Positions 1,358-62,252 of a stretch of 64,000 nt of DNA are shown piece by piece. This DNA is from Candidatus Parcubacteria bacterium (GTDB lineage: Bacteria > Patescibacteriota > Minisyncoccia > Phycocordibacterales > UBA918). The translations under genes and the position numbers were made by a program. Position 1 is the first letter of the stretch. Each line of letters starts with the position of its first letter. Under the pieces are notes generated by a model, which saw only the letters and a list, made by a program, of their open reading frames with translations, was not told the origin of the DNA and ran no database searches. The stretch is from contig JAKFXN010000003.1 in assembly GCA_021731405.1 (NCBI GenBank), forward strand, positions 108,676-172,675. The letters run 5' to 3'.

Positions 1358-2665
1358 TTGTTATTTATGTCTTGGTTTGAAGAAAACAAACAAACACTTA
1401 TCGCTTTAGTAGAAGGGATTATTGTCTTCCTTATTCTTTTTGGGCTCATTGTCGCTGCAGCCACTTTTTATGACTTTTCTCAGACCAACATCCCCGTACT
1501 TACGTTTATCTTAGCGCTTGTCTGTGCCGTCTTTTTGGCCAAAAGTGTCTACGATATCGAAATTGATAAGGTGCGAATCAAAAAGAAGGGTGAACAGCTC
1601 GCCAACAAACTTGTCGCTTCTTCGCAGCAACTCTTTCTTGAGGTGTACAACAACAGCCCGGTCGCCTATTTGATTGTGGGGGAGTATGGAGACATTGTTT
1701 CAGCCAATACGGCCGCAGCTCGGTTGTTTGGGGTGTCTACTGAACATTTGGTAAAGCGAGACTTGTTTAGCTTTATGGAGACAGCCAACGAGGAACATCA
1801 ATCTATCCTCAAACACAAGTTCACTGAGGGAATCACTGTCTCTGATGAAGAGGTGAAGATATCGCGCGAACAAGATTTTTCATGGACCACCTTTTCAATT
1901 TTTCAGTTCTCGTCTACTGATGGAAAAAAACTCACACTGGTGACGTTTGTGGATATTACAAAACAAAAAGAGATTGATATCGCCAAGTCAGAATTCGTTT
2001 CGCTGGCTTCACACCAACTCCGTACCCCTATCTCAGGTATGCGGTGGAGCGCTGAGCTTCTTCTAATGGACGGGGTAGAGTCGCTCACCAAACAACAAAA
2101 ACGCTATATCGACAGACTACTTTCCAGTATTCAGCGTATGAGTGGTCTGGTGGACGATTTCTTGCAAGTATCACGCTTTGAGCTTGGTACGCGCGTGGTA
2201 AAAGAAGAATCGGTGGTACTTCGAGATTTGTTTGATGATGTGGTTGCAGAACAAGTAGAAAAAATATCAGTGAAACATCTGCATATCAATAAAGAATATG
2301 ACGATTCAATCACTCAAATTTCTACTGATCAAGCACTGTTACGAATGATTGTCACCAATTTGTATGTAAATGCCGTAAAGTACTCACGAGTCGGAGGAGA
2401 CGTTACGTTGGCATATCGCAAAAATGGAGAAGAGCTGATTATCGAAGTGCGCGATACGGGAATGGGTATTCCACTTGGTGAACAACCTCGGGTATTTTCA
2501 AAAATATTCCGCGCTTCAAATGCTGTGCGTGAAGTTCCGGATGGTACTGGGCTTGGTCTTTATATTGTTCAGAAAGCAGTCCAGACTCTGCAGGGAAGGG
2601 TAACGTTCTTGTCTGCTGAAAATATGGGCACTACTTTTACCGTAGTGATACCAACTTCGTTGTAG
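1358..2665 (+). CDS. sensor histidine kinase (two TM segments, PAS-like domain, HisKA + HATPase_c)
   Basis: H-box ASHQLRTPISGMRWSAELL. N-box NLYVNAVKYS. G1 VRDTGMGIP. G2 GTGLGLYIVQ. Confidence 0.85.
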   Translation: MLFMSWFEENKQTLIALVEGIIVFLILFGLIVAAATFYDFSQTNIPVLTFILALVCAVFLAKSVYDIEIDKVRIKKKGEQLANKLVASSQQLFLEVYNNSPVAYLIVGEYGDIVSANTAAARLFGVSTEHLVKRDLFSFMETANEEHQSILKHKFTEGITVSDEEVKISREQDFSWTTFSIFQFSSTDGKKLTLVTFVDITKQKEIDIAKSEFVSLASHQLRTPISGMRWSAELLLMDGVESLTKQQKRYIDRLLSSIQRMSGLVDDFLQVSRFELGTRVVKEESVVLRDLFDDVVAEQVEKISVKHLHINKEYDDSITQISTDQALLRMIVTNLYVNAVKYSRVGGDVTLAYRKNGEELIIEVRDTGMGIPLGEQPRVFSKIFRASNAVREVPDGTGLGLYIVQKAVQTLQGRVTFLSAENMGTTFTVVIPTSL

Positions 2666-3086: not shown

Positions 3087-3851
3087 TTAGTCACGAGCGT
3101 CAAGCAAGATACTCAAGTCAGCCGTGTTTACTTTTCCGTCACCATTAAAGTCACCTTTCGGATTATTGGTTGGGAGAAGCAGTAGGAAAATACTCAAGTC
3201 AGCCGTGTTTACTTTTCCGTCGTTTGTAAGGTCTGGGTTCGGGAGAGTGTTGAGGACAACAACTTCCGCGGCTGATTTGGCTTCATGAACAATAATCTTT
3301 TCTGGCTCATTTGCACTGACGGTAAAAAGAGTATCGATGTAGTTTGTTAACACCGCTTCTGTTCCTTTCCCGTCATGCATGAGGATGAGGGTGTCGTTGA
3401 GTACAAGATTTCCGTTTCCAGGGTTTAGCGCAGTGAAGGTGACCGTAAGGAGTGTATCAGTACCAGTAAAGCCGCCTGGTCTTGTGGTGCCGCCAGCAAA
3501 GCTAATAGTACCAGCACCATTTTCGTACCACGGCGCTTCGGCCCAGAGGTCGGCCAAGGAAATGTTGTAGTCGATACTTTCTACCGCCAGCGCCCCTTCA
3601 TTAAAAGTAATTGTTCCCTTAAATGCATTTACAGGAATATCTGATGTCGTCTCAATTTTTACGGTAAAAGTTTCACCTGGAGCACTTACGTATGTGCCAG
3701 ACGTGAGCAGGATAGCAGTCTCTTCAGTTTCGGTTGGAAGGAGGTACATACCCGTGATAGCGAGAATACTCAAAATCACACTTGCGGCAATAGTAGGGGG
3801 GATGATGGTACCAGCGCTTTGTTGGATATTCATACTATATAAGTATGACAT
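3087..3851 (-). CDS. secreted/membrane-anchored protein with two C-terminal dockerin-type Ca-binding repeats
   Basis: N-terminal TM/signal segment. C-terminal DLTNDGKVNTADLSIFL and DFNGDGKVNTADLSILL (dockerin type I repeat pattern D-x-N/D-x-D-G-x-V-N-x-x-D). Confidence 0.55.
   Translation of the reverse strand: MSYLYSMNIQQSAGTIIPPTIAASVILSILAITGMYLLPTETEETAILLTSGTYVSAPGETFTVKIETTSDIPVNAFKGTITFNEGALAVESIDYNISLADLWAEAPWYENGAGTISFAGGTTRPGGFTGTDTLLTVTFTALNPGNGNLVLNDTLILMHDGKGTEAVLTNYIDTLFTVSANEPEKIIVHEAKSAAEVVVLNTLPNPDLTNDGKVNTADLSIFLLLLPTNNPKGDFNGDGKVNTADLSILLDARD
3107..3221. repeat. 33-bp perfect direct repeat, two copies 80 bp apart (ATACTCAAGTCAGCCGTGTTTACTTTTCCGTC)
   Basis: Seen at 3107–3140 and 3187–3221. 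It encodes the two dockerin repeat modules of the gene above. Confidence 0.8.
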
Positions 3852-4538: not shown

Positions 4539-5300
4539 ATGGACACTATTATACAAATGCTTACTGTGCTCGGCCTGCCTTCGCGTTCAAGTGCGGTCTA
4601 TGTTGATCTACTGGCGCACGGCCCCTCTGCTGCGCGTACGATTGCGCTGCGTCTCGGTATCCCACGTTCGTCACTCTACGACCACGTGAAGCCGCTCCTT
4701 GATCTCGCCCTTGTGTCTGAGCTCAAGACAGGTACCAAAGCAGTTTTTGTTGTGGAGGAAATTAGTAACCTCGATCGGTTAGTCGCTAAGCAAGAGCAGT
4801 CGCTCGCCCTGCTTCGCACCGAGTTCACTAAAGCCAAAGCTACTCTGGCTGAAGCGCAGACGTCTCATGCTGAGCCTCGGATAAAATTTGTCGAAGGCAA
4901 AGCGGGTATAGCCGCACTTCTCTTGGAGATGCTCTGGGATACCAAAAGTGAAATCAAAACGGTCTGGCCATACGAGGCGATGCTTAAAGTTTTGTCACCT
5001 GAAGATCTTGAACTTTTCAATCGTAAACGTATTCGCCAAAACATTGCACTCAAGACCATCTGGACTGGACCTCGGCCAGGAAAGCAGCATCTCTGGCGCG
5101 GCGGCGACTTTAAGGTAGAGCGCAAAAGTGCGCCAGCAAAATATCATGCTGATATGGCCTACAACATCTATGGAGACAGAGTGTCTTTCTTTAGTTCAGT
5201 TGGTGAACAGTATGGCTTTGTGGTCCATAGTCGAGACTTCGCAGCTCTCATGTCGGCACAGTTCGCGGCCTTGTGGGAAGTGTCTAAGGAGGGTAAGTAG
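4539..5300 (+). CDS. TrmB-family HTH transcriptional regulator (start chosen at MDTIIQML)
   Basis: N-terminal winged HTH: LTVLGLPSRSSAVYVDLLAHGPSAARTIALRLGIPRSSLYDHVKPLLDLALV. Confidence 0.5.
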   Translation: MDTIIQMLTVLGLPSRSSAVYVDLLAHGPSAARTIALRLGIPRSSLYDHVKPLLDLALVSELKTGTKAVFVVEEISNLDRLVAKQEQSLALLRTEFTKAKATLAEAQTSHAEPRIKFVEGKAGIAALLLEMLWDTKSEIKTVWPYEAMLKVLSPEDLELFNRKRIRQNIALKTIWTGPRPGKQHLWRGGDFKVERKSAPAKYHADMAYNIYGDRVSFFSSVGEQYGFVVHSRDFAALMSAQFAALWEVSKEGK

Positions 5301-8562: not shown

Positions 8563-10572
8563 ATGTCAGAGATTAAAACCTTCCCATTTAGTCAACCAGG
8601 AGTTGAACAAATAAGAAACTACAAGTACGGCACTGATTGGCCAGTCGTCTATTTGATTGAAAATGGGAAGGAGCTTTACGTAGGTGAAACAATTAGAGCT
8701 TACGGTCGTACAAGACAGCATTTAGATAATGAAAAGCGAAGACAGCTTAATACGATTCATGTAATTTCTGACGATGAATTTAATAAGTCTGCCACTCTCG
8801 ATACCGAGTCTTCATTGATTGAGTATTTGGTAGCTGATGGGGTATATACTCTTCAAAATGGAAATGGAGGTTTACAAAACCATGATTATTTTGATCGCGA
8901 GCGTTATCAAGGAAAATTTGAATTATTGTGGAAGAAGCTGCAGGACTTAAAGATTGCAAAGAATGATTTGTTACAAATCCGTAACAGTGATCTTTTTAAA
9001 TATTCACCTTATAAAACTCTCACAGACGATCAGTATTTAATTGCTACCCAACTCGTAGAGCATTTTAAAGAGAATAAAAAACAAACATACGTTATTCATG
9101 GAGGTCCTGGAACCGGAAAGACAATACTTGCTACTTTCCTTATTAAAAAGCTAGTTGATGAAGGTAAAAAAGACATTGCCCTAGTCATTGCAATGGTTTC
9201 TCTACGAAAGACACTAAAGAAAGTCTTTCGAGGTATTCCTGGACTCAGTCCAAATATGGTTATTGGACCTAATGAAGCGGTTGATCAAAAATATGACATT
9301 TTAATAGTGGATGAAACTCACCGACTGCACCAAAGAAGAAATATTCCTAATTACGGAACCTTTGATGTTACTAATAAAAAATTAGGTTTAGGAAACGAGG
9401 GAACAGAGCTGGACTGGATTCTCTCCTCAGCAAATCAGGTAGTACTTTTTTATGATCAGCGCCAATCGGTCCGACCTTCTGATATTTCCGCTAAAAAGGT
9501 TTTGGAAACAAACCCGATTAGTTTTGAATTAAAAACACAAATGCGTGTTAAAGGGGGAGAAAATTATCTTCATTTTATAGATAACCTCTTAGAAAATAGC
9601 GCCGACACGAAAGCAAATTTTACTGACTACGAATTTAAGGTCTATGATGATTTGGGGCAAATGGTAAGTGCTATCAAAGAGCAGGAGAAAGCCCATACAC
9701 TCTCACGTATGGTAGCTGGCTATGCTTGGAAGTGGCTATCAAAAAAGAATCCTACCGTACCAGATATTGTTATTGGGGATACAAAGTTGTTTTGGAATAG
9801 TAGAATTCATGACTGGGTGAATTCACCAAATGCCATTAACGAAGTTGGTTGTATACATACTATTCAAGGGTACGATCTAAATTACACTGGTGTAATTATC
9901 GGTCCGGAAATGTCCTACGATCCAATCAAAAAAGTGATTGTGGTTGATAAATCAAAGTACCTTGATTCAAATGGACATAAAGGGGTCACAGATCCAGAAG
10001 AACTCAGGCGTTATGTTATTAATATTTATAAAACATTACTGACTCGCGGCATTCTTGGAACGTACGTTTACATAGTGGACGAAAACTTAAGAAAATATTT
10101 TAAGGAGGTGTTATCTGGAGAAAGTTTAGTAACTCAAGAAGAGGTGTCAGAAGAAGAGGTTACGCCGTCTCCTTATCAGGGAGAAGTGGTAAAGGTTCCA
10201 CTGTATGACTCAATAGGTTGTGGGGAGCTGATGCTCGCTGATTCAGTTAGTGATGAAACTGTCGATGTGCCAGCTTGGCTTATAAAACCCGGTGCAAAGT
10301 ATTTTGCGCTTCACACTCGAGGGGACTCAATGAATCAACTCGCTATTAATGATGGGGACATTATCTTGTGTCAGAAGAACCTGAATGCAACTAGTGGTAA
10401 TGCGGTCGTGCTAATAGGGGACGACGCAACCCTTAAACAGATTAAGGTAGAAAAAGATGGTTTGGTACTTATACCAAAGTCGACCAATCCGGAGCATAAG
10501 ATAAGAAAAGTGACTATTGACGACGACTTCAAGATTCTAGGAGTGTTTGTCTGTAAGATTGATAGAAACTAG
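8563..10572 (+). CDS. GIY-YIG-like + DUF2075 P-loop ATPase fused to a C-terminal LexA-like S24 autopeptidase domain
   Basis: N-terminal WPVVYLIENGKELYVGETIRAYGRTRQHL (GIY-YIG-like). Walker A GGPGTGKT, Walker B ILIVDETH. C-terminal PLYDSIGCGELMLA (cf. LexA PLVGRVAAGEPLLA cleavage region). GDSMN is the catalytic Ser. DATLKQIK is the catalytic Lys. Confidence 0.7.
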   Translation: MSEIKTFPFSQPGVEQIRNYKYGTDWPVVYLIENGKELYVGETIRAYGRTRQHLDNEKRRQLNTIHVISDDEFNKSATLDTESSLIEYLVADGVYTLQNGNGGLQNHDYFDRERYQGKFELLWKKLQDLKIAKNDLLQIRNSDLFKYSPYKTLTDDQYLIATQLVEHFKENKKQTYVIHGGPGTGKTILATFLIKKLVDEGKKDIALVIAMVSLRKTLKKVFRGIPGLSPNMVIGPNEAVDQKYDILIVDETHRLHQRRNIPNYGTFDVTNKKLGLGNEGTELDWILSSANQVVLFYDQRQSVRPSDISAKKVLETNPISFELKTQMRVKGGENYLHFIDNLLENSADTKANFTDYEFKVYDDLGQMVSAIKEQEKAHTLSRMVAGYAWKWLSKKNPTVPDIVIGDTKLFWNSRIHDWVNSPNAINEVGCIHTIQGYDLNYTGVIIGPEMSYDPIKKVIVVDKSKYLDSNGHKGVTDPEELRRYVINIYKTLLTRGILGTYVYIVDENLRKYFKEVLSGESLVTQEEVSEEEVTPSPYQGEVVKVPLYDSIGCGELMLADSVSDETVDVPAWLIKPGAKYFALHTRGDSMNQLAINDGDIILCQKNLNATSGNAVVLIGDDATLKQIKVEKDGLVLIPKSTNPEHKIRKVTIDDDFKILGVFVCKIDRN

Positions 10573-10679
10573 ATGTACGTGGAGTATTAAAATGAGTTAC
10601 GGTTGTCTATATCCCATGCAGGCCTATTTTTGTAGGTCAGCTATTGATCTATTCTGTCTGATCTGGTTAAGTTGTTTGA

Positions 10680-11144
10680 ATGGCATCGGCTCACTCTTAT
10701 AAAATAACCCTTTCCAACAACAAGACTGAAAAGCAAGCGATTGACTACTTATTGTCAATCGATAAACGGTTTTTGCTTCCAACAAAAGAGGGTAGGAAGC
10801 AACTTCTAAACGTTCTCGGTTTAGATAAGAAATACGCGCGCACCTTTGATTTATTTGTTTTGTCCGGTCACACCAGTGATGAGCAAGAAATTACATTCAA
10901 AGATGTTAAAAAAGTTATTTTGATTGAGCTTAAGACAACTCAAAAGTACCTACCAAATAATCCAAAAGGATTTTTCTTCGGAGCGACGCAAAATGAATTT
11001 GATCTAGCAGAGCAACTTGGAGAGCAGTATAAATTTTGTTTCGTCAGTCTTCATCCAGAATCGCTAGGCTATTCCCTTGTGTCGGCAATTGAATTGGAAG
11101 ACAAAGTTATAAATAAGCGAGTACAGTATCAAATAAATCTATAA
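10680..11144 (+). CDS. hypothetical 154-aa protein, possible PD-(D/E)xK nuclease-fold
   Basis: FDLFVLSG...VKKVILIELKTT resembles a D...ExK motif. It lies immediately upstream of the C5-MTase. Confidence 0.3.
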   Translation: MASAHSYKITLSNNKTEKQAIDYLLSIDKRFLLPTKEGRKQLLNVLGLDKKYARTFDLFVLSGHTSDEQEITFKDVKKVILIELKTTQKYLPNNPKGFFFGATQNEFDLAEQLGEQYKFCFVSLHPESLGYSLVSAIELEDKVINKRVQYQINL

Positions 11145-11231
11145 AGTATTTTGGTGCAATTATAGTAGTAAAACTTAAATATCCCAGGAGTGACTATATC
11201 GTGAATTGATAAACCCTGGCATAATAAGAAG

Positions 11232-12482
11232 ATGTTAAAGTCAACAAATAAAAAACCTAGGGTTTTAGATTTATTTGCTGGAGCAGGAGGTCTCTCTGAG
11301 GGCTTTGTCAGAGCTGGCTGTAATATTGTAGGTCATATCGAAATGGATAAAAATGCTTGTGAGACTCTTATCACAAGAATGGTTTACCACGCACTCCTCA
11401 AAAAGGGAAAAATTGATGAATATAAAAAATATGTGCTAGGAGAAGTTACCAGAGAGGAGTTGATTGAAAAATATAAACTACAAAAAGAGCGGGACTCAGT
11501 AATATGTGCATCTATAGGAGTAGATAACTACAGAAATTTAATAGCTACAATCAAAGAGAAACTGGGGGGTAAAAAACTGGACTTAATCATCGGAGGTCCA
11601 CCTTGTCAGGCTTATTCACATATTGGTCGAGCACGTGATAAAAATAAAATGGCTTCTGACGAGCGTAATTTTTTGTATAAATTTTATGTTGAGTTTTTAA
11701 AAGAATTACTGCCAAAAATCTTTGTTTTTGAAAATGTCCCAGGGTTAAAAACTGCTGCAGGCGGCAAGCATCTTGCGGATATGAGGGCGCTAATGTTGGA
11801 GGCTGGATACGAGACGGAATTGAGCGTCCTTAATACTGTAGATTTTGGTGTCCCGCAAAATAGAAAGAGAGTCATCTTGATTGGTTGGAGCAAAGAATCA
11901 AAAATGAAGGAGTACCCAGATTTTGATAAACTTAAGCTGGTTCGTTCGTATGTTGTCTCGGATGTTTTTTCTAACTTACCTAAATTGAAGGCAGATGATG
12001 GATCTTTGCATGTAAGAGATTTTCAGCAAGGTAGTAGTGTCCCAAGCCAGTTGATGATTAGTGACTTTGATATTTTGATGTCGCACATGACTCGGCCGAA
12101 CAACGATCAAGATTTAGAGATATACAGACATGTGGCTCTGGCTAAAAGGAAAGGTGTTGAGCTTAAGTATAATGAGCTACCCAAGGAGCTTAAAACTCAT
12201 AAAAATGAGCACGGTTTTCTAGATAGGTTTAAAGTTGTCGATCCAGCTGCAAAAGGGTCACATACAATAGTCGCTCATATTGGAAAAGACGGTCACCATT
12301 ACATTCATCCTGATGTTAAGCAAAATAGGTCTATTTCAGTGAGAGAGGCTGCCCGCTTGCAAACATTCCCGGATAGTTATAAGTTTGAGGGAGCTCGAAC
12401 TGCTCAGTTTAAACAAATTGGGAACGCTGTTCCGCCTTTATTTTCAACAATGATTGCAAAAGAGCTAATCAAACATCTTTAA
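11232..12482 (+). CDS. dcm: DNA (cytosine-5)-methyltransferase
   Basis: Motif I DLFAGAGGLSEGF. Motif IV GGPPCQAYS. Motif VI ENVPGL. Motif X QIGNAVPP. Confidence 0.9.
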   Translation: MLKSTNKKPRVLDLFAGAGGLSEGFVRAGCNIVGHIEMDKNACETLITRMVYHALLKKGKIDEYKKYVLGEVTREELIEKYKLQKERDSVICASIGVDNYRNLIATIKEKLGGKKLDLIIGGPPCQAYSHIGRARDKNKMASDERNFLYKFYVEFLKELLPKIFVFENVPGLKTAAGGKHLADMRALMLEAGYETELSVLNTVDFGVPQNRKRVILIGWSKESKMKEYPDFDKLKLVRSYVVSDVFSNLPKLKADDGSLHVRDFQQGSSVPSQLMISDFDILMSHMTRPNNDQDLEIYRHVALAKRKGVELKYNELPKELKTHKNEHGFLDRFKVVDPAAKGSHTIVAHIGKDGHHYIHPDVKQNRSISVREAARLQTFPDSYKFEGARTAQFKQIGNAVPPLFSTMIAKELIKHL

Positions 12483-12487
12483 AATAT

Positions 12488-14662
12488 ATGAAGAAAGTAT
12501 TTAAGCCACGAGCCAGACTACTATTACAGTTAGGAAATCAGCTTATAAAAAATGAAAATATAGCTCTAGTTGAATTAATTAAAAACTCTCATGATGCGGA
12601 TGCAAAAGAGTGCAAAATTGAGTTAATCAACATTGATTCTAAAGAGAATGGAGAAATCATCATTAAAGATGACGGCGTTGGTATGTCTCTACAGGTGATT
12701 GAACAGATATGGTTAGAGCCAGGAGCGGACTTTAAAGACCTTGTACTCAAAGGCAAACAATTGCCACTGAACTTGATTTATGCAGCTAAGCGTACTCCAA
12801 TTGGCGAGAAAGGGATTGGTAGGTTTGGTGTACATAAATTAGGTGATGAAGTGGAGCTGGTTACTAAAGACGCAGATTCTGAGAAGGAAATAGTAGTAAA
12901 AATTAACTGGCTGGATTTTCATGATGTCATCTATTTAGAGGATGCAACTTTTGATGTCGCAGAGAGGAAGCCTGTGATTTTTACAGGCAAGCAGACTGGT
13001 ACTGTAATGACTATACGAAAACTACGTACCTCATGGGATAAAACTATGTTTAAGGAACTGATCAGAACTGTTCTGTCGCTCAATACACCTTTTGCAGAAA
13101 AGACTAAAGATAGTTTTTCAGCTACTCTGAATCTTAGTTTAAAGAATAAAGATCAACAGTTAGAGTGGCAAGAAACAATGCTGACAGTCGAACAGGTAAA
13201 AAATTTATCTTTATGGAAAGTAAGATGCACTATCGAAGGTAATAAAATAAAGAAATTTCACTATGAATTTTTACCATATGCTGGAATGGACAAGCTTTCT
13301 AAGAAAGTGGTTACTGAGAAAAATGCTATTTTCACCAAGTATTATAATCAACTAAGAGACAGCAATAATTTACCATTTGATTTGTCATCACATGAGATTG
13401 GTCCGATTGAAGTTGAGCTTTTTCTCTTTTATCTTGGCTCGAAGGTTCTAAAACTAAGCACATCAGATCCTAGGTTGCTTAATGATTTTATGAAAGAGAA
13501 CGGTGGGGTTAGGGTTTATAGGGGAGGAATGCGCGTTTATGACTACGGGGAACCAGAAGATGACTGGCTAAACTTAGATCAGAAGAGAATAAGTAATGTG
13601 GGAGGGAGCATAGGAAATAAGCTTATTCTAGGTTCCATTTCACTAGAAAGACGCAAAAGTCTTGGGCTAATTGAAAAAACAAACAGAGAGGGTTTTGTGG
13701 AGAACGATTCATATAAAGCATTCAAGCAGTCGCTTTTGCAAGTCATTGCCATTGTCAATCATTTGAGAAATATAGATAAGTTACAAATTAAAGAAATATA
13801 TGAAGGATCAGCACAGACTGAGCCAGTTTTGCATGATGTAGATTTATTGAAGGACATAACAACTGAGAAGATCGCAGATTTTTCTGAAGGATTAACTGAA
13901 GAAAAGAAAAATGAGGTCAATAAATTTAGAGATGAAATTATTGAAGGCTTAGAAGTCATCAAAGAACAATATATTAAAAGCCACGATATTCTTATTAAAA
14001 GTGCTGGTGCTGGTTTAAGTCTTGGGGTGGTAATTCATGAAATTGAAAAAAGAATTAAAGAACTCAGAAGAGTGATAGATGTTGTTGATTTTAATGTAAA
14101 GAAGGTAAAAGAAATAGTTTTATCAATTTCTAAATTAGTTGGTAATTATTCTGTGTTACTAAGTAATACCACTAAAGAAAAAGTACAACTTTCTAAAGTG
14201 GTTGAAGATTCAATATATAACTGCTCATTTAGGTTTGAGGCTCATAAAGTTTCTGTATCCCAGCTATATAAAAAGCATAAGTTAGTCAAAATAAATTGTG
14301 CCACAAATATTATTGTTGGAGCTCTTCTCAATATTTTTGATAACTCGCTCTATTGGTTAAATGCTTATGATATTAAAGATAAAAAAATATTGATTGACTT
14401 TAATGACTACAAAGATGAGATTGGAGTCTTGGTGGCAGATAACGGTAAGGGGTTTTTATTATCGGCAGAGGATGCAATTAAACCCTTTATTTCAATGAAA
14501 AATGGAGGTACAGGCTTAGGGTTACACATTGCCGATGAAATGATGAAGATCCATAAAGGGCGCCTTGTAATAAGGAATTTTAAAGAATTTAAATCTTTAC
14601 CTAAGGAGTTTGAGCAAGGTGCCATCGTAGAGTTAATCTTTAAGAAGAATGAAACTAAATGA
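12488..14662 (+). CDS. hybrid GHKL ATPase: N-terminal MORC/HATPase_c_3-like module plus C-terminal histidine-kinase-like core (H-box + HATPase_c)
   Basis: N-terminal: ELIKNSHDADA, DDGVGMS, GEKGIGRFG. C-terminal: GVVIHEIEKRIKEL (H-box-like), LLNIFDNSLYW (N-box), VADNGKGF (G1), GGTGLGLHIADEMM (G2). Confidence 0.6.
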   Translation: MKKVFKPRARLLLQLGNQLIKNENIALVELIKNSHDADAKECKIELINIDSKENGEIIIKDDGVGMSLQVIEQIWLEPGADFKDLVLKGKQLPLNLIYAAKRTPIGEKGIGRFGVHKLGDEVELVTKDADSEKEIVVKINWLDFHDVIYLEDATFDVAERKPVIFTGKQTGTVMTIRKLRTSWDKTMFKELIRTVLSLNTPFAEKTKDSFSATLNLSLKNKDQQLEWQETMLTVEQVKNLSLWKVRCTIEGNKIKKFHYEFLPYAGMDKLSKKVVTEKNAIFTKYYNQLRDSNNLPFDLSSHEIGPIEVELFLFYLGSKVLKLSTSDPRLLNDFMKENGGVRVYRGGMRVYDYGEPEDDWLNLDQKRISNVGGSIGNKLILGSISLERRKSLGLIEKTNREGFVENDSYKAFKQSLLQVIAIVNHLRNIDKLQIKEIYEGSAQTEPVLHDVDLLKDITTEKIADFSEGLTEEKKNEVNKFRDEIIEGLEVIKEQYIKSHDILIKSAGAGLSLGVVIHEIEKRIKELRRVIDVVDFNVKKVKEIVLSISKLVGNYSVLLSNTTKEKVQLSKVVEDSIYNCSFRFEAHKVSVSQLYKKHKLVKINCATNIIVGALLNIFDNSLYWLNAYDIKDKKILIDFNDYKDEIGVLVADNGKGFLLSAEDAIKPFISMKNGGTGLGLHIADEMMKIHKGRLVIRNFKEFKSLPKEFEQGAIVELIFKKNETK

Positions 14663-15881
14663 TTATAGCGATTTTACTAAAGTTGTAATCATTGATGATG
14701 ACTACAATGAAGGTAATGAAGTTCGGAAAGCACTACTCGGTGCGGGTATTTCATCGGCTTTTTTTCATATATCGTCTAGTCAACCTGAACCTAAAGGTCC
14801 TTATAAAAATGTACGCTTAGTATTCTTAGATTTAGACCTAGACCACCTAGGCGTGCAAGAGAACCCAACTCAAGGTGCCTCAATAACATTGGCTACCCTT
14901 TCGAGGGTCGTAGATAAGAGTAGTCATTATGTTTTAGTATTATGGTCTGCAAAAACCACGAGGCCAATAGCTCGTGAGTTTAAGCGTCAACTGAAGAGAA
15001 CAAAAACAGTGGCAAATCCTATAAAAATTATAAGTTTAGGAAAAAATACTTGTAAAAATACCTCAGGAAGTTATAACTTATCAAAAATTAAGAAAGGAAT
15101 TAATTCTGGTTTAGAAAGCCTTCCCGCCTTCTCAGTCTTTTCAGAAGGAGAGAGGATTTTCGGCAATGCAATCGCTAAAACAATGGTCTCAATTTCGAAG
15201 CGACGTAGTGATCAAACTTTGTCAAAAGTTATTAATTCTTTAGCTAAAGCCAGTGCGCCACGTCCACGTGAACTAGTTGCAAATAGTGCTCTACTCAATT
15301 TCAATGGACTCATTGAAGACTCTATAGCTAGAGAAGTCTTAGCTCATGATTTTGGAGATTTACATTCTAAATTAAATGAGGAAGAGCTAAATCCCCGTCA
15401 GTGTGCAGAATTAAATTATCATTTAATTTTTTCGCCCGATAAGGTTTCTGATAGTGGTCAAATTATTTTTTTAAGAAAAAACAAAAAATTTATTAAAGAC
15501 GTTTTTGGTGACGAAATGAATTGTGAAGCATATAAATCAATGAGATGTTTTGTGGTAGAAGTAACACCGATTTGTGGAAGCGCTCAATCTAACGGTCTTC
15601 GCTATGTCATTCAAGGGGTGATTCATCCTCAGTTCAGAAAAGTAAGAACTAGTAAGGATGAAATTCGTGCAACAAATGTGTCAGGCTATACGTTTAAAGA
15701 CAGCTTTATATATAGCGGAAAAATTTGTCGAATGTCTTTTAATTTAAGATCTTATAGTACTGACATAAAGGATGTGGATTCTGGCGTAGTTAGTGAAAAA
15801 CTTCGAGCACATATTGTGATGGACATTCAACATAAAATCGCCTCTTATATTTCTCGTCCTGGACACTCATTGCTTTACTAG
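14649..15881 (+). CDS. receiver (REC)-like domain protein with unknown 280-aa C-terminal domain
   Basis: KVVIIDDDYNEGNE...VRLVFLDLDLD...VLVLWSAKT resembles a CheY-like fold. The start overlaps the previous gene by 14 nt. Confidence 0.4.
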   Translation: MKLNDYSDFTKVVIIDDDYNEGNEVRKALLGAGISSAFFHISSSQPEPKGPYKNVRLVFLDLDLDHLGVQENPTQGASITLATLSRVVDKSSHYVLVLWSAKTTRPIAREFKRQLKRTKTVANPIKIISLGKNTCKNTSGSYNLSKIKKGINSGLESLPAFSVFSEGERIFGNAIAKTMVSISKRRSDQTLSKVINSLAKASAPRPRELVANSALLNFNGLIEDSIAREVLAHDFGDLHSKLNEEELNPRQCAELNYHLIFSPDKVSDSGQIIFLRKNKKFIKDVFGDEMNCEAYKSMRCFVVEVTPICGSAQSNGLRYVIQGVIHPQFRKVRTSKDEIRATNVSGYTFKDSFIYSGKICRMSFNLRSYSTDIKDVDSGVVSEKLRAHIVMDIQHKIASYISRPGHSLLY

Positions 15882-16006
15882 CCATACACCACCTAGCAAT
15901 ATAGACGACATAGAGTGTTTGCTAAAGTCTTTAGAATTAGTCGCGCTGAATTGAAATACGTTAACTAAGGTTAAGTATCACTTATAAGACAGTTTTGTTT
16001 GGAAGT

Positions 16007-16190
16007 GGCGGAATTGGTCACGAATCACTAAGTATATTTATTCACTTCGTTCCAAATCTACTAAGTGTTCTCGACCCCAGCTCGCTCGCCTCCGGCATCG
16101 CTGCGCTCCTCAATTCCCGACGAAAGCAAAGCAGTTTGCTTTCTCCGCTCCACCATATTAAAAAAATCCCCATGAGGGGAATTTTTAATA
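16007..16190 (-). repeat. tRNA/tmRNA-3'-flank element copy (d), core-less, downstream of ssrA
   Basis: Shares left/right arms with copies at 52331, 53937 and 61925. Proximal CGGGAATTGAG is the reverse complement of the tmRNA T-arm. Distal CAATTCCGCC is a direct copy of the tmRNA 3' segment. Confidence 0.6.
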
Positions 16191-16588
16191 TGGTGGAGAT
16201 GGCGGGAATTGAGCCCGCGTCCGAATCAGGTACCACATGGTGCTTCTACAGTGTGTAGTTACTCCTTTGATTTAAAGCTTATGTCTTAAGAAGAAACAAA
16301 ACAACATAAACTCGAGTTGTTACAAGCTTAAACATATGCGACAACGGCGCTTATGCCCAGAGCCTCGTGGCTATTCTACAACCGTGCCGTATGAGGCGTT
16401 TAACACGATCGCATCGATCCGGGTCTAGGCGAATGGTTACGCTAGAGCGGGAGCGAATCCAAACGCGTTAGCGTATGGACTTGGTATTGCTTTGTTTGCA
16501 AATACAGATGGAACCTCTTTACGAATTGATTTCCAGTTTTCGACACTGCACACAATGGGTAGGCTAACCGTCGATGCCTAGCATCCCC
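16191..16588 (-). ncRNA. ssrA: tmRNA (SsrA)
   Basis: 5' GGGGAUGCUAGGCAUCGACGG... and 3' ...GCGGGCUCAAUUCCCGCCAUCUCCACCA form a tRNA-like domain. Tag ORF GCA-AAC-AAA... encodes ANKAIPSPYANAFGFAPALA*. SmpB is adjacent. Confidence 0.85.
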
Positions 16589-22916: not shown

Positions 22917-22990
22917 TCAGGTAGTGCGCAAAGTGCGCGTGTTTCACAGCTCGGTCGGACTTTATGTTCAAGATTCAATATTTTGTCCAT

Positions 22991-23136
22991 CCACTTGGAC
23001 TCGAATCTTACAGATTCCTGTCCACTCATATGTCTCTTTTGTTCACTCCGTTCCAAAAGATACTATATGAGTCTTGCGAAATGGGTCCCATCCCATTTCT
23101 CACCAAGGACCACAGATTATATGAAATTCAAAACAA
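22991..23136 (-). repeat. tRNA-3'-flank element copy (a): duplicated tRNA-Ile 3' half interrupted by the ~95-nt core (23006–23103)
   Basis: In tRNA orientation: CTGTGGTCCTTGG-[core GTGAGAAATGGG...CTGTAAGA]-TTCGAGTCCAAGTGGATGG. The tRNA itself has ...CGGTCCTTGGTTCGAATCCAAGAGGACGG. Confidence 0.6.
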
Positions 23137-23138
23137 AG

Positions 23139-23212
23139 TCCGTCCTCTTGGATTCGAACCAAGGACCGCAGAGGTATAAGCTCTGTGCTCTAACCAACTG
23201 AGCTAAGGACGG
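23139..23212 (-). tRNA. tRNA-Ile, anticodon UAU (loop CUUAUAC)
   Basis: Manual fold. Acceptor CCGTCCT/AGGACGG, D GCTC-AGTTGGTTA-GAGC, anticodon stem CAGAG/CTCTG, T GGTTCGAATCC. No CCA encoded. Confidence 0.65.
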
Positions 23213-32865: not shown

Positions 32866-32882
32866 ATTGTTTTTTAACTTAG

Positions 32883-32969
32883 CGGAGGATGTGGGATTCG
32901 AACCCACGAGAAGTTTAACCCTCTGGCGGTTTAGTAAACCGCTGCCTTCAGCCACTCGGCCAATCCTCC
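32883..32969 (-). tRNA. class-II (long variable arm) tRNA, Ser-like (G73), anticodon loop UUACUAA (anticodon ACU by standard numbering)
   Basis: Manual fold. Acceptor GGAGGAT/ATCCTCC, D GCC-GAGTGGCTGAA-GGC, anticodon stem GCGGT/ACCGC, 18-nt variable arm, T GTGGG-TTCGAAT-CCCAC. Confidence 0.55.
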
Positions 32970-35034: not shown

Positions 35035-35120
35035 ATAAAAGTTTTGTTATATATATATTTAAACTAGGGTAAATGGGGGAAGGTTGCAGGGAGAGGAATT
35101 TCTCGGCTTGTATAACAAGG

Positions 35121-35301
35121 AGACGAGAGGATTCGTCCTGACGGTCACTAAGCTATTTTATTTCGTTCCACTCATAAAATAGCAAGTGCCGCGGGACACG
35201 ACTCGCCGACCCAAAGGGTCCCCCGGCTCCGTCGTTCGAATCCTCTCTTCTCGCGCTCGTGCAAACAAAAACAACCCTGAACGGGTTGTCTTTGGCACTC
35301 G
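35121..35301 (-). repeat. tRNA-3'-flank element copy (f) downstream of tRNA-Ser(GCU)
   Basis: Proximal 27-nt inverted copy of the tRNA-Ser 3' end (GAGAAGAGAGGATTCGAACGACGG). Conserved GAGTGGAACGAA...CTTAGTGAC arm. Distal direct copy GACGAATCCTCTCGTCTCC. Confidence 0.6.
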
Positions 35302-43473: not shown

Positions 43474-43977
43474 ATGAAACAATCAATGCTCACCCGTGGA
43501 TTTACGCTCATCGAGCTCCTCGTGGTTATTGCCATCATCGGTATTTTGGCGGCAGTAGTTATCGGTTCACTCAACGATGCACGTAGTGGTGGCCAGGACG
43601 CTTCAATCAAGCAGTCTGTAGCCAACATTCGTTCACAAGCAGAGCTCTTCTATAACGGAAACGGGTACACCTATCGTGTGGATGCTACAACAAACGTTTG
43701 TACAAACACTCAAGTGGACTCACTCCTTAGTGCTGCCGTAGACGTAGTAAACGGTACAGACTATGCTTCTGCCACACACGGTGTATCAACATATGTTGCT
43801 CTTAACACACTTACTGGTGCAGCTTCTGGTCGAACAGCAGCTTGTCACGCTGATGAGACACGATACCTTGCTGTAGCTCCGCTCGCTAGTATCGCTCAAT
43901 TCTGGTGTGTAGATAGTACTGGTGTATCAGCTCAGGTTGCAACAGCTCCAGCTTCAGGAGACTATACTTGTAACTAA
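43474..43977 (+). CDS. type IV major pilin
   Basis: Class III signal [26 protein letters not shown] (G|FTLIE). Confidence 0.8.
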   Translation: MKQSMLTRGFTLIELLVVIAIIGILAAVVIGSLNDARSGGQDASIKQSVANIRSQAELFYNGNGYTYRVDATTNVCTNTQVDSLLSAAVDVVNGTDYASATHGVSTYVALNTLTGAASGRTAACHADETRYLAVAPLASIAQFWCVDSTGVSAQVATAPASGDYTCN

Positions 43978-44067: not shown

Positions 44068-44490
44068 ATGGTAATGAAAACATCTTCTGGATTTACGCTC
44101 ATCGAGCTCCTCGTGGTTATTGCCATCATCGGTATTCTCGCCTCAGTGGTTATTGGGTCACTCAATGATGCACGTGACAGTGGACTTGACGCTAAGATTA
44201 AAAGTGAGATGTCTGCACTTTCTAAGCGAGCGGCCGTAGAGGAGTCTGCCTCCTTCACCTTTGATGCGGTTTGCGGATCAAACAGTGTTACTCAGTCGCC
44301 ACAGATTATCGCTATCATTACCGCTATTGAGATGTTCTCAACTGGTCCAGTTATATGTAACAGCGACACGTATGCATACGCCGCATCGGTACCACTTGAG
44401 ACCGACTATTGGTGTGTTGACAGTGAAGGTGTGGCAGGGGTGTTTGCCACTCCACTTAGTACCAGTACCCCAACATTTAGTTGTTCGTAA
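44068..44490 (+). CDS. type IV pilin (second copy)
   Basis: [24 protein letters not shown]. Confidence 0.8.
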
Positions 44491-52208: not shown

Positions 52209-52261
52209 TAAGTTGCAATTATGTCAAAAATGAGGTACTTTCTTGTGTACCGAAGTATATA

Positions 52262-52330
52262 GCGGGTTAGAGGAGAGGTACCTCGGGAGGCTCATAACCT
52301 CCAGACTCCGGTTCGATTCCGGAACCCGCA
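52262..52330 (+). tRNA. tRNA-Met (CAU), elongator-type
   Basis: Anticodon stem-loop GGAGG-CTCATAA-CCTCC. T-arm TCCGG-TTCGATT-CCGGA. Acceptor GCGGGTT/AACCCGC. Exact ends ±2 nt. Confidence 0.7.
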
Positions 52331-52620
52331 ACAAAATAACAAAACCAGCACCCTAGGTGCTGGTTTTGTTATTTTGTCAGGGTTCACAGAGCCAACTGCT
52401 TGGCTCTGGTCGGGATCGAACAACCGCAGCGATGCCGTAGGCGAGCGAGGTGGGTGAGAAATGGGACGGGACCCATTTCGCAAGGCTCATATAGTATCTT
52501 TTGAACGAAGTGAGAAAAGAGACATATGAGTGGACAGAATCTGTAAGATTCGAGAACACTTAGTAGATTTGGAGTGGAACGAACAAATATACTTAGTGAT
52601 TCGTGACTCATTCCGGAACC
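52331..52620 (+). repeat. tRNA-3'-flank element copy (b) with nested core (52454–52548)
   Basis: Terminator hairpin, then GTCGGGATCGAACAACCGCAGCGATGCCGTAGGCGAGCGAGGTGG. Then core GTGAGAAATGGGACGGGACCCATTTCGCAAGG...CTGTAAGA. Then TTCGAGAACACTTAGTAGATTTGGAGTGGAACGAACAAATATACTTAGTGATTCGTGAC. Then direct copy TCATTCCGGAACC of the tRNA-Met 3' segment. Confidence 0.7.
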
Positions 52621-52874
52621 ACTTGTCCCTCAATTTTCCATTGCCCGCCTGTTCGCAGAGAAGTACAATTAACCTATGAGTAAAAATCATTCTGGACGAC
52701 CATTAAACGTGAATCATCATATGGGCAAAACGGCACCGCTGGGTAAGCACATGCAACCGCGTCGGGTCGCTTCACGGATGGAAGGTGCCCCTCGAAACGA
52801 ACAACGGAAAGCGGGAAAAGGTAAGTAGGTTATAAGTTGAGCTTGTTCTCAATCTCTTGTATATTGCTTGTATT

Positions 52875-53794: not shown

Positions 53795-53868
53795 GCGGTG
53801 GTAGCTCAACTGGTTAGAGCACCCGCCTGTCACGCGGGAGGTTGCGGGTTCGAGTCCCGTCTACCGCG
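53795..53868 (+). tRNA. tRNA-Asp (GUC)
   Basis: Acceptor GCGGTGG/CTACCGC, anticodon stem-loop CCCGC-CTGTCAC-GCGGG, T GCGGG-TTCGAGT-CCCGT, G73. Confidence 0.85.
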
Positions 53869-53936
53869 CACAATAAAGAATCGGCGAAAGCCGATTTTTT
53901 TGTGCGCGGTAGAAGAAAAGTGCTCGGGCACTTTTC

Positions 53937-54148
53937 GTCGGGACTCGAAAACCGCAGCGATGCCGTAGGCGAGCGAGGTGGGTGAGAAATGGGACGGGAC
54001 CCATTTCGCAAGGCTCATATAGTATCTTTTGAACGAAGTGAGAAAAGAGACATATGAGTGGACAGAATCTGTAAGATTCGAGAACACTTAGTAGATTTGG
54101 AGTGAAACGAACAAATATACTTAGTGATTCGTGACCGAGTCCCGTCTA
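53937..54148 (+). repeat. tRNA-3'-flank element copy (c) with nested core (53982–54076)
   Basis: Inverted acceptor copy TGTGCGCGGTAGA, a hairpin, then inverted T-arm CGTCGGGACTCGAA. Conserved arms plus core. Distal direct copy CGAGTCCCGTCTA of tRNA-Asp. Confidence 0.7.
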
Positions 54149-61924: not shown

Positions 61925-62103
61925 CGAGTAAAGAAAACACCCGTATGGGTGTTTTCTTATATACGAGCTGCCCGAAGCAAGTGACTAAATGTCACTTGCG
62001 GCAAGGACTCGAAAAGCTTTTGAGTATATTTTGGAGTGGAGCGAACAAAATATTCAAAAGGTATACTGGTCATGTAATGACCGAGATTCCTTGTCGGGCA
62101 GCG
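61925..62103 (+). repeat. tRNA-3'-flank element copy (e), reduced form
   Basis: Terminator. Inverted acceptor copy GCTGCCCGA plus a hairpin. Inverted T-arm GGCAAGGACTCGAA. ATTTTGGAGTGGAGCGAACAAAATAT. Distal direct copy CGAGATTCCTTGTCGGGCAGCG of the tRNA-Gln 3' end. Confidence 0.65.
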
Positions 62104-62252
62104 ATGAACGGAAATATTGAAACACCTCTTTTGCGTCTCTCGTTCACTTGTCGGTAAGCAAACACAAATCAACCTGTTAAGGGTATTTTGTTTTCACAAA
62201 AAAACCCGCGATCGAAATCGCGAGTAGGGGTGGTGTATGTAGAAGCTGGTGG

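What the first reader, a model, noticed from the sequence alone, without database searches (positions are those of the whole stretch)
23006..23103. Nested ~95-nt structured core inserted at a T-loop-like GG^TTCGAG site inside the elements, and alone within a duplicated tRNA-Ile 3' half
A core, GTGAGAAATGGGAYGGGACCCATTTCGCAAGRCTCATATAGTATCTTTTG...GACATATGAGTGGACAGRAATCTGTAAGA, is present in the tRNA-Met copy (52454–52548), the tRNA-Asp copy (53982–54076) and the tRNA-Ile copy (23006–23103, minus strand). It is precisely absent from the tmRNA copy, where the flanks abut as GAGCTGGGG^TCGAGAACAC.

At tRNA-Ile the core sits by itself inside a second, partial copy of the tRNA-Ile 3' half: GGTCCTTGG-[core]-TTCGAGTCCAAGTGGATGG. 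That places it exactly between the T-stem and the T-loop.

The core has a stable hairpin, AAATGGGA-CGG-GACCCATTT, and a long-range pairing between GCTCATATAG and CATATGAGTGG. It has no credible ORF: the frames differ between copies and overlap on both strands. Its behaviour looks like a second small mobile or structured-RNA unit targeting T-loop-like GGTTCGA sequences. It could be a ribozyme-like or retroelement-like non-coding RNA.
Basis: seen in the sequence. Interest (0 to 1): 0.8.

Follow-up and report, generated by a model that had tools for sequence, protein, structure and literature searches.

The report
Small structured insertion module near tRNAs
A roughly 97-base non-coding, three-hairpin DNA module found in many copies in a group of tiny uncultured bacteria (Paceibacteria) appears or is missing at the same spot in close relatives, sits in spare copies of tRNA gene ends, and matches no catalogued RNA family or mobile element.

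Summary
Three copies lie at 23006-23102(-), 52455-52548(+) and 53983-54076(+), and the tmRNA-linked element lacks the module. Two corrections are needed. It also missed a third hairpin, P3, whose 3' strand includes the "TTC" of the supposed TTCGAG flank.

A species-representative genome scan found the module at 47 loci, all Patescibacteria, with several copies per genome. All three helices covary: 97.8% of cells pair against 75% in shuffles, and 21 of 22 pairs change on both sides. Rfam, phage, plasmid and viral collections gave no match. No ORF family recurs beside it.

Close relatives provide empty sites: GGTCCTTGG|TTCGAATCC at tRNA-Ile, and GAGGTGGGG|TCGAGAG in the orthologous tRNA-Met element.

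So the core is a discrete insertion and deletion unit, 5'-UGAGAAAU...CUGUAAGA-3'. It is nested in larger ORF-less mosaic elements that occupy tRNA and tmRNA T-loops and supply a replacement 3' end. In other genomes it also sits in D-loops, anticodon loops and the 5' ends of protein genes, so T-loop targeting is a sub-lineage tendency rather than a rule. The mobilising mechanism is unresolved. I file it as a new variant of ORF-less structured repeats.

The parts
23006..23102 (-). Core copy 1, the inserted unit 5'-TGAGAAAT...CTGTAAGA-3' (97 nt), lying between G53 and T54 of a spare tRNA-Ile 3' half
   Evidence: Sequence. Covariance-model hit 23001-23106, 98 bits. Empty sites GGTCCTTGG|TTCGAATCC in L048, L050 and L051.
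23003..23017 (-). P3 hairpin GAAUCU[GUA]AGAUUC. Its last three bases (23005-23003, TTC) double as T54-T55-C56 of the flank.
   Evidence: Alifold and pair counts show 18-36 double-sided changes per outer P3 pair. L029 has the compensated version GGAUC/GAUCC.
23103..23115 (-). Partial tRNA-Ile copy, positions 40-53 (CTGTGGTCCTTGG), forming the left flank of the core
   Evidence: Its junction with the duplicated trailer lies at a CTGTG microhomology.
22985..23005 (-). Second copy of the tRNA-Ile 3' end, positions 54-76 (TTCGAGTCCAAGTGGATGGAC), followed by the native trailer AAAATATTGAATC
   Evidence: The same trailer directly follows the single tRNA-Ile in L048, L050 and L051.
23138..23212 (-). 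Intact tRNA-Ile (UAU)
   Evidence: ARAGORN and Rfam.
52455..52548 (+). Core copy 2, nested between the left arm and the right-arm hairpin of the tRNA-Met element. P3 runs on to 52551.
   Evidence: The orthologous element in L052 lacks the core and reads GAGGTGGGG|TCGAGAG.
53983..54076 (+). Core copy 3, nested in the tRNA-Asp element and identical to copy 2
   Evidence: The tRNA-Asp locus carries no element in L052 and different modules in L053, L054 and L055.
52333..52622 (+). Host element at tRNA-Met. In order: terminator, inverted copy of the tRNA 3' end split by a hairpin, left arm GCAGCGATGCCGTAGGCGAGCGAGG, core, right-arm hairpin ending GTGAC (52603-52607), then the displaced tRNA 3' fragment TCATTCCGGAACCAC.
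53870..54147 (+). Host element at tRNA-Asp with the same layout. The displaced fragment CGAGTCCCGTCT lies at 54136-54147.
15997..16190 (-). Coreless host element at the tmRNA gene. The arms join at 16075/16074, and the displaced tmRNA 3' end CAATTCCGCCACTTCCAAAC lies at 16016-15997.
   Evidence: The site is empty in L048 and holds a different coreless variant in L050.
61926..62105 (+). Related element at tRNA-Gln with a 'short core' (P2, junction, P3 but no P1), closed by an inverted and a direct copy of the tRNA 3' end
   Evidence: Covariance-model hit 61988-62084, 38.8 bits. The fold has z = -7.3.
35119..35300 (-). Coreless variant at tRNA-Ser (GCU), with an inverted copy GCGAGAAGAGAGGATTCGAAC and a displaced CGAATCCTCTCGTCTCC
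   Evidence: (repeat I8).

Best explanation
The core is a discrete, ORF-less insertion and deletion module of about 97 nt, 5'-UGAGAAAU...CUGUAAGA-3'. It has three helices.
- P1 has a conserved base GUGAGAAA/UUUCGCAAG and a YGGGA loop.
- P2 is long and variable with a GA-rich tip.
- A junction G[UGA]AC[AU]G precedes P3.
- P3 is NNNCU[GUA]AGNNN.

It belongs to an undescribed family of mosaic non-coding repeats in Paceibacteria (CPR). Larger members of the family sit in the T-loop of tRNA and tmRNA genes. They bring a replacement 3' end, a terminator and an inverted copy of that 3' end, and they push the old 3' end downstream, so the gene stays intact.

The core occurs alone inside spare gene-end copies, as at tRNA-Ile here, or nested at the arm junction of the larger elements, as at tRNA-Met and tRNA-Asp here.

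Shown: exact boundaries from filled and empty pairs, no terminal inverted repeats, no target-site duplication, a left flank ending in G or GG, and the element's last three bases (the outer P3 strand) overlying three target bases.

Inferred:
- Insertion favours sites that resemble the element's ends. For the GAAUC/GAUUC sub-lineage that means GG|UUC, the T-arm motif.
- Movement happens at the DNA level and depends on a factor supplied in trans.
- Spread within and between genomes is helped by recombination through the conserved gene fragments that flank it.
For: Distribution. 47 loci in the species-representative genome scan, all Patescibacteria, with several copies per genome. A further 20 or so diverged copies turned up with the covariance model.

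Structure. 97.8% of cells pair against 74.8% in shuffles and 34-50% when the partners are slid. 21 of 22 pairs change on both sides.

Filled and empty pairs:
- tRNA-Ile: window against L048, L050 and L051.
- tRNA-Met arms: window against L052.
- L026 glycosyltransferase gene: CATGGGG|CGGCGC against CATGGGG[core]CGGCGC.

Right-junction overlap of three bases: TTC/TTC at Ile, CGG/CGG in L026, GTC->TTC in the arms, CGG->GAG in L014.

Spread inside a genome. Near-identical cores sit at three different tRNAs in MFLT01 (L006, L007, L034) and at three sites in this window.

Same site in a distant genome. L029's core is about 94% identical in nucleotides, while the neighbouring protein is 43% identical.

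No protein partner. No ORF family recurs within 2.5 kb of the cores.

Non-coding. Lengths are not multiples of three and no frame is open in all copies.

Orientation. 24 copies share the strand of the adjacent tRNA and 3 do not.
Against: - No enzyme, intermediate or transcript has been seen, so insertion and deletion cannot be told apart for any single pair. Recombination between the direct repeats could also delete the core precisely.
- The conserved unpaired nucleotides and the strong co-orientation with tRNAs are what a functional RNA would show.
- The partial gene duplications that accompany almost every copy are not explained by a simple cut-and-paste or copy-and-paste model.
- The covariance alignment was seeded with an exact P1 pattern and fitted to the model, which inflates apparent conservation and pairing.
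- The right-junction rule rests on only four cases.
Confidence: 0.6

Rival explanations
1. The core is a domain of a functional structured RNA. Candidates are a tRNA-linked processing or regulatory RNA, a protein-binding scaffold, or a new small ribozyme. Such an RNA would be co-transcribed with or next to tRNAs. Copy number and presence/absence differences would come from recombination among paralogous tRNA-flanking regions, not from transposition.
For: - Covariation in all helices, with invariant junction and loop nucleotides.
- 24 to 3 co-orientation with the adjacent tRNA.
- The inverted copy, body and displaced 3' end fold into a closed, tRNA-like structure with an acceptor-like stem, a side hairpin and a T-stem carrying the body, at z = -7.3.
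- Wobble pairs favour the sense strand, 9 to 1.
Against: - Wobble pairs make up only about 0.8% of paired cells, which I judge low for a functional RNA family (own knowledge).
- A terminator sits between the tRNA and the element, and no promoter-like site lies inside it.
- Copies interrupt coding sequences and leave truncated pseudo-ORFs in msrA, a glycosyltransferase gene and a kinase gene.
- Close relatives lack the core at the same sites.
- One copy carries a nested insertion in its P3 loop (L007).
- No Rfam family matched.
Confidence: 0.2
2. The elements are miniature integrative elements, like CIMEs or satellites, moved by a tyrosine or Xer-type recombinase encoded elsewhere. The tRNA-derived direct repeats would be attL and attR. 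The inverted copy would let a single strand fold into a duplex att site, as in integron attC or CTX-phi. The core would be an arm-type binding platform or simply cargo.
For: - The replacement gene ends differ from the displaced native ends. Examples are the msrA N-terminus in L047, the glycosyltransferase N-terminus in L026, and the tmRNA T-stem in L050, where the inverted copy matches the new end rather than the old one.
- The sites used are the T-loop, the anticodon loop and the extreme 3' end, which are the classical sublocations for integrases in tRNA genes (own knowledge, Williams 2002).
- Different body modules occupy the same tRNA-Asp site in relatives.
Against: - No integrase lies in or beside any element.
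- The targets are too varied for one conventional site-specific recombinase.
- The core's position relative to the repeats varies from case to case.
- The core alone shows precise insertion without any att-like repeat.
Confidence: 0.12
3. The core is a retro-mobile RNA. It would enter transcripts or DNA through RNA-level chemistry, or through template jumping by a reverse transcriptase. Snap-back synthesis would create the inverted tRNA-end copies.
For: - The ends are precise and mostly in sense orientation.
- The inverted duplications are centred on terminator hairpins.
- The replacement tmRNA end in the window carries CCA (CTCCACCA), while the native genes in L048 and L050 and the displaced copy lack it.
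Against: - The direct repeats usually run past the mature tRNA end into the trailer: GCAGT(T)CAAAA in L054, and L044 and L045 likewise.
- PMC13011429 reports no group II introns in Patescibacteria.
- Wobble pairs are very rare.
- No reverse transcriptase gene lies near any copy.
Confidence: 0.06

Closest known systems
Rickettsia palindromic elements (RPE)
   Same: Both are ORF-less, roughly 100-150-nt structured repeats in reduced genomes of host-dependent bacteria. Both are multi-copy and insert inside genes, including the tmRNA gene, without killing gene function. No transposase is known for either. PMC1458961 reports 526 copies in R. bellii, 53 in protein genes and one in the tmRNA gene.
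   Different: RPEs stay in frame inside the gene product (own knowledge). Here the interrupted copy is a spare, partial duplicate beside an intact gene. The core forms three separate helices with conserved junctions rather than one long palindrome. There is no sequence relationship, and the bacterial phylum is different.
REP/BIME mosaic repeats and other bacterial MITE-like repeats (Correia, ERIC, BOX)
   Same: Short non-coding hairpin-forming modules combined in mosaics. Here the modules are a side hairpin, a left arm, the core or short core, and a right arm. They are spread through intergenic DNA and mobilised in trans, if at all.
   Different: The core has no terminal inverted repeats and no target-site duplication. 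Gene-end fragments, direct and inverted, are part of the architecture. No RAYT or parent IS has been identified.
tRNA/tmRNA-targeting integrative elements and their integrase-less derivatives (CIMEs; tycheposon remnants)
   Same: The host elements sit in the T-loop or at the 3' end of tRNA and tmRNA genes. They restore the gene with their own copy of the 3' end and leave a displaced partial tRNA as a direct repeat.
   Different: They are 150-300 nt long, have no genes, and carry an inverted copy of the tRNA end with a covarying hairpin. The same modules also occur at the 5' ends of protein genes.
Integron attC sites and CTX-phi attP (folded single-strand recombination sites)
   Same: The layout is a direct core site, an inverted core site, a variable structured loop, then a direct core site. 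This is the same order as in an integron cassette array. The inverted copy matches the element-borne end.
   Different: There is no GTTRRRY/RYYYAAC consensus, no integron integrase, and the target is a tRNA T-arm. This is a resemblance of layout only.
Group I introns in Patescibacteria tRNA genes (PMC13011429)
   Same: Both occur in the same phylum and in tRNA genes. Relatives of this window carry such an intron in tRNA-Asp.
   Different: Those introns lie at anticodon-loop position 35/36, are more than 200 nt long, self-splice and match Rfam. The core is 97 nt, lies in a non-functional tRNA fragment and gives no group I match.

Membership tests
Any Rfam 15 family, including hammerhead, twister, pistol, hatchet, HDV-like and group I | Covariance-model score at or near the family threshold | tested here: not met
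   At gathering thresholds the window gives only tRNAs and tmRNA. With E up to 10, nothing overlaps the core apart from one E=1.7 lncRNA-model match, taken as chance, in the Met element scan; the tRNA-Ile region gave no match at all.
MITE (miniature inverted-repeat transposable element) | Terminal inverted repeats | tested here: not met
   The ends are 5'-TGAGAAAT and CTGTAAGA-3', which are not complementary.
MITE (miniature inverted-repeat transposable element) | Short target-site duplication flanking the insert | tested here: not met
   The filled and empty pairs at tRNA-Ile and in L026 show no duplicated bases at the junctions.
MITE (miniature inverted-repeat transposable element) | A related autonomous IS with matching ends in the same genomes | not tested
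   Only 8-20-kb loci were available. No recurrent ORF lies next to the copies.
Group I intron | Conserved P3-P7 catalytic core, length over about 200 nt, sited in a functional gene and spliced | tested here: not met
   The core is 97 nt and gives no RF00028 match. The host tRNA fragment has no 5' half.
Integron attC | R''/R' boxes RYYYAAC...GTTRRRY at the ends of an imperfect palindrome | tested here: not met
   No such boxes occur at the ends of the core or of the host elements.
Integrase-mobilised tRNA-targeting integrative element | Direct repeat of the tRNA 3' part at both ends, with the gene restored by the element | tested here: met
   Met for the host elements at tRNA-Met, tRNA-Asp, tRNA-Gln, tRNA-Ser and tmRNA.
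Integrase-mobilised tRNA-targeting integrative element | Integrase gene inside or beside the element | tested here: not met
   The elements are 150-300 nt with no ORF. No recurrent neighbouring gene was found. Ten window ORFs scanned against Pfam include no integrase.
Rickettsia palindromic elements | Match to the RPE family models and in-frame residence inside functional genes | not testable with these tools
   No RPE models were available. The behaviour differs, because the interrupted copies here are truncated pseudo-copies.
Protein-coding sequence | A conserved open frame and length changes in multiples of three | tested here: not met
   Length mod 3 is 21/16/15 across 52 copies, and no frame is stop-free in all of them.

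The most novel reading that the evidence does not exclude
The core, with the short-core and arm modules, may be a new class of nucleic-acid-structured mobile element. In this reading its own folded RNA or single-stranded DNA directs site choice through its terminal helices (GG on the left, the outer P3 strand on the right). Insertion would be coupled to regeneration of the target gene end, either through a programmable recombinase not yet recognised or through self-catalysis. It would amount to a T-loop-homing, gene-sparing parasite of tRNA genes specific to CPR bacteria.
Probability: 0.2. Interest if true: 0.9.

Novelty: new variant of a known kind. Interest (0 to 1): 0.72.

Why it matters
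CPR bacteria have very small genomes, yet six of the nine tRNA and tmRNA genes in this 64-kb window carry ORF-less structured inserts. The same modules recur in dozens of Paceibacteria species. If the elements are mobile, they show how selfish DNA can colonise essential single-copy genes without harming them, by bringing or keeping a spare gene end.

There are practical consequences too. These inserts would explain stray partial tRNAs in metagenome-assembled genomes, may distort tRNA and gene-start annotation, and offer a marker for recombination and horizontal exchange among uncultured lineages. If the conserved fold proves to be a functional RNA or a recognition structure for a recombinase, it would be a new RNA family or a new site-selection principle.

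Tried and rejected
- Known RNA families: Rfam at gathering and at permissive thresholds gave nothing for the core.
- Protein partner: ORFs within 2.5 kb of every copy were clustered all against all, and no family was shared by three or more loci. Pfam scans of ten window ORFs, including those next to the tmRNA element, found no integrase, transposase or reverse transcriptase.
- Phage or plasmid origin: two pattern scans of viral contigs and blastn against phage and plasmid collections found nothing.
- A universal closing stem around the core: the inverted-repeat search of the flanks found one only in some contexts, such as L033 and L035.
- P3 5' strand as a programmable guide for the target: rejected in favour of a 3-nt overlap, because in L014 and in the arms the target bases differ from the element's.
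- Simple long target-site duplication: this fits L024 and L044 but not tRNA-Ile, L036 or L026, where the core lies inside the spare copy.
- Reverse transcription from mature tRNA: only the tmRNA CCA supports it, and the repeats extending into trailers argue against it.
- Literature: eight full-text searches found no description of these elements. TIGR-Tas (PMC12045711) and the group I intron paper (PMC13011429) concern other things.

Full report
**1. The observation**

The 5' half of the core pattern occurs exactly three times in the window, at 23054-23103(-), 52454-52503(+) and 53982-54031(+). None is expected by chance. The Met and Asp copies lie inside a 206-nt repeat that is 96% identical between the two. 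The Ile copy differs from them by a few substitutions and three single-base indels.

ARAGORN and Rfam place a tmRNA gene at 16191-16588(-), tRNA-Ile(UAU) at 23138-23212(-), tRNA-Met at 52261-52332 and tRNA-Asp at 53795-53869. Downstream of the tmRNA gene the same arms occur without the core, and they abut as GAGCTGGGG|TCGAGAACAC.

Three corrections are needed.
- The Ile junction reads GGTCCTTGGTGAGAAAT. Base 23103 is G53 of the T-stem, and the insert is 23006-23102.
- The coreless junction is not an exact empty site. It differs by one base, GGG-GTC-GAG against GGG-[core...TTC]-GAG.

**2. The core is a widespread, structurally conserved unit**

An exact-pattern scan of one genome per species found 47 loci. 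All are in Patescibacteria, carrying Paceibacteria, Kaiserbacteria, Parcubacteria, Nomurabacteria and "Saccharibacteria" labels. One MAG alone contributes about ten loci.

Aligning 41 copies gives three helices.
- P1 has a conserved base GUGAGAAA/UUUCGCAAG and a YGGGA loop.
- P2 is long, with at least three alternative stem sequences (CCUUG/CAAGG, CUCAU/AUGAG, GGUUG/CAACC) and a GA-rich tip.
- A junction G[UGA]AC[AU]G comes next, followed by P3 with a GUA triloop.

A covariance model built from these copies found about 20 more diverged copies in the same loci. Among them are copies whose distal P1 stem is replaced by other complementary sequences. It also found "short cores" that lack P1, one of them at tRNA-Gln in this window (61988-62084).

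On that alignment 97.8% of cells pair, against 74.8% after shuffling and 34-50% with slid partners. 21 of 22 pairs show changes on both sides. The alignment was seeded with an exact P1 pattern and fitted to the model, so these numbers are upper estimates.

The unit is not coding. Lengths run from 81 to 123 nt without a period of three, and no frame is open in all copies. Wobble pairs are very rare: 9 G.U against 1 A.C among about 1100 paired cells. That gives a weak sense-strand signal. I would expect far more wobble pairs in a functional RNA family (own knowledge), so the pattern looks more like DNA palindromes.

**3. No known family and no protein partner**

Rfam 15 gave nothing for the core, either at gathering thresholds or at E up to 10. 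Viral contigs, phage genomes and plasmids gave no match. ORFs within 2.5 kb of all copies share no family across three or more loci. Eight literature searches found no description. The nearest paper deals with group I introns at anticodon position 35/36 of Patescibacteria tRNAs.

**4. Filled and empty sites**

Orthologous loci were fetched through the neighbouring genes.

- *tRNA-Ile.* Three relatives whose HlyD-like protein is 86-88% identical (L048, L050, L051) have a single tRNA-Ile, followed directly by AAAATATTGAAT...GAGCTGTGAAC. The window instead has, in order: the tRNA, a 22-nt copy of that trailer, CTGTGGTCCTTGG, the core, TTCGAGTCCAAGTGGATGGAC, and then the trailer again. The duplication junction lies at a CTGTG microhomology.
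- *tRNA-Met.* In L052 the flanking NTP-transferase is 97% identical and the genome is the same as L048's. Its orthologous element has the identical left arm but no core, reading GAGGTGGGG|TCGAGAG.
- *A glycosyltransferase gene in L026.* The intact copy reads CATGGGG|CGGCGCC. The truncated upstream copy reads CATGGGG[TGAGAAAT...CTGTAAGA]CGGCGC.

These pairs define the unit as 5'-UGAGAAAU...CUGUAAGA-3'. It has no terminal inverted repeats and no target-site duplication. The left flank ends in G or GG. On the right, the element's last three bases overlie three target bases: TTC/TTC at Ile, CGG/CGG in L026, GTC->TTC in the arms and CGG->GAG in L014. For copies whose P3 is GAAUC/GAUUC, the best-fitting site is therefore GG|UUC, which is the universal T-arm motif.

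It is not general. Other copies sit at tRNA-Met position 7/8 (L004), in the tRNA-Tyr D-loop (L014), in the tRNA-Ser anticodon loop (L044), and in the 5' ends of msrA (L024, L047), a P-loop kinase gene (L005) and the glycosyltransferase gene (L026, L037). In each case an intact copy of the gene lies beside the interrupted one.

**5. The host elements**

Each element at tRNA-Met, tRNA-Asp, tRNA-Gln, tRNA-Ser(GCU) and tmRNA follows the same order.
1. The functional 3' end of the gene.
2. A terminator.
3. An inverted complement of that 3' end, split between the acceptor and T-stem parts by a covarying hairpin (for example AGAAAGCAAACTGCTTTGCTTTCG).
4. A body made of modules.
5. A second, decaying copy of the 3' end that starts inside the T-loop.

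Several comparisons bear on how these elements behave.
- L048 has an empty tmRNA site.
- L050 has a different coreless variant, and its inverted copy matches the new functional end rather than the displaced one.
- At tRNA-Asp, L052 has nothing, L053 and L054 have short-core bodies, L055 has coreless arms, and the window has arms plus core. The displaced fragment ends at the same base in the window and in L053.

Modules therefore swap at a fixed site.

The inverted copy, body and displaced end fold into a closed, tRNA-like shape, with z = -7.3 for the tRNA-Gln element. In the arms type, "TCGAG" is the base of the right-arm hairpin and pairs with the terminal CGTGAC. Six of the nine tRNA and tmRNA genes in the window carry such an element.

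**6. Signs of spread**

Three near-identical cores sit at three different tRNAs in one Kaiserbacteria MAG (L006, L007, L034). The three window copies share one private P2 variant.

That variant also occurs at the same tRNA-Ile site in L029. There the core and its flanks are about 94% identical in nucleotides, yet the adjacent HlyD-like protein is only 43% identical. This means either horizontal transfer or very strong constraint.

24 copies share the strand of the adjacent tRNA and 3 do not. L007 shows another sequence inserted into the P3 loop of a core, and L025 has four cores in tandem.

**7. Interpretation**

The best reading is that the core is a discrete, ORF-less, structured insertion and deletion module. 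It belongs to a mosaic repeat family that colonises the ends of conserved genes while sparing one intact copy.

The steps that are shown:
- exact boundaries;
- presence and absence at orthologous sites;
- copying within genomes;
- covarying helices;
- absence of coding capacity, of a protein partner and of any known family.

The steps that are inferred:
- site choice by similarity to the element's ends;
- mobility at the DNA level through a factor supplied in trans;
- spread by recombination through the conserved gene fragments.

The accompanying partial duplications, both direct and inverted, remain only partly explained. Junction microhomologies (CTGTG at Ile, GTAAGG in L024) point to template switching or illegitimate recombination.

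Three rivals remain open.
- *A functional RNA domain.* This fits the conserved junctions and the co-orientation with tRNAs.
- *Miniature integrative elements moved by an unseen recombinase.* This fits the replacement ends that differ from the native ones and the layout resembling an integron cassette.
- *A retro-mobile RNA.* Its only support is the CCA on the replacement tmRNA end. The repeats that extend into tRNA trailers argue against it.

**8. Comparison with known elements, and verdict**

In behaviour the closest known things are Rickettsia palindromic elements, which are ORF-less structured repeats inside genes of a reduced genome, one of them in the tmRNA gene (PMC1458961). REP/BIME-type mosaics come next, and the host elements resemble tRNA-targeting integrative elements without an integrase.

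The core fails the tests for MITE (no terminal inverted repeats, no target-site duplication), group I intron, attC and every Rfam family.

I file it as a new variant of a known kind. There is a real chance, about 0.2, that the family represents a new mechanism of structure-directed, gene-sparing insertion.

Noticed in passing
window 53795-53869; L052:5530-5912, L053:~1900-2300, L055:~4930-5300: tRNA-Asp has no intron in the window. In three close relatives it is split at anticodon-loop position 35/36 by an intron of about 250 nt. In L052 a LAGLIDADG ORF lies just upstream. This matches the group I introns described in PMC13011429.
   Followed up: partly
window 8563-15881: Next to the displaced tmRNA 3' end lies a block of defence-like genes: a Schlafen-type helicase fused to an S24 peptidase, a C5 cytosine methylase, a two-HATPase protein and a 410-aa protein with no Pfam match. 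Synteny with L048 and L050 ends here, so this looks like an island at the tmRNA locus.
   Followed up: partly
window 16160-16205 (-): The functional tmRNA 3' end in the window reads CTCCACCA, with CCA encoded. The native genes in L048 and L050 and the displaced copy at 16016-15997 lack CCA. The origin of the replacement end is unexplained.
   Followed up: partly
window 61926-62105: A related 'short core' element (P2, junction and P3, no P1) follows tRNA-Gln. It is closed by an inverted and a direct copy of the tRNA 3' end and folds with z = -7.3.
   Followed up: yes
window 35119-35300 (-): A further coreless variant follows tRNA-Ser(GCU). Its inverted copy of the tRNA 3' end is uninterrupted, and its right end reads TTAGTGACCGTCAGGA rather than ending in ..GTGAC.
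   Followed up: partly
window 32882-32969 (-): ARAGORN calls a tRNA-Ser with anticodon ACT, which is unusual for bacteria. No element follows it.
   Followed up: no
L007:~1890-2000 (-): A 72-nt sequence is inserted into the GUA loop of a core's P3 (GAATCTGTA[...]TAAGATTC), so there is a nested insertion inside the core itself.
   Followed up: partly
L025:1023-1773 (-): Four core-like units lie in tandem within about 750 nt, with different P1 and P2 variants.
   Followed up: no
L024:1022-1252 and L047:~2560-2810: The core sits at the same codon of msrA (GCFW|G, ...TTCTGGGG|) in two different genomes. One has a perfect 70-nt direct repeat. The other has only 13 nt of identity and a different replacement N-terminus.
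   Followed up: partly
window 43497-43602 / 44088-44193 and 3103-3178 / 3184-3259: There are two further direct repeats, 106 nt at 86% identity and 76 nt at 74%, unrelated to the tRNA elements. They probably lie within coding regions.
   Followed up: no
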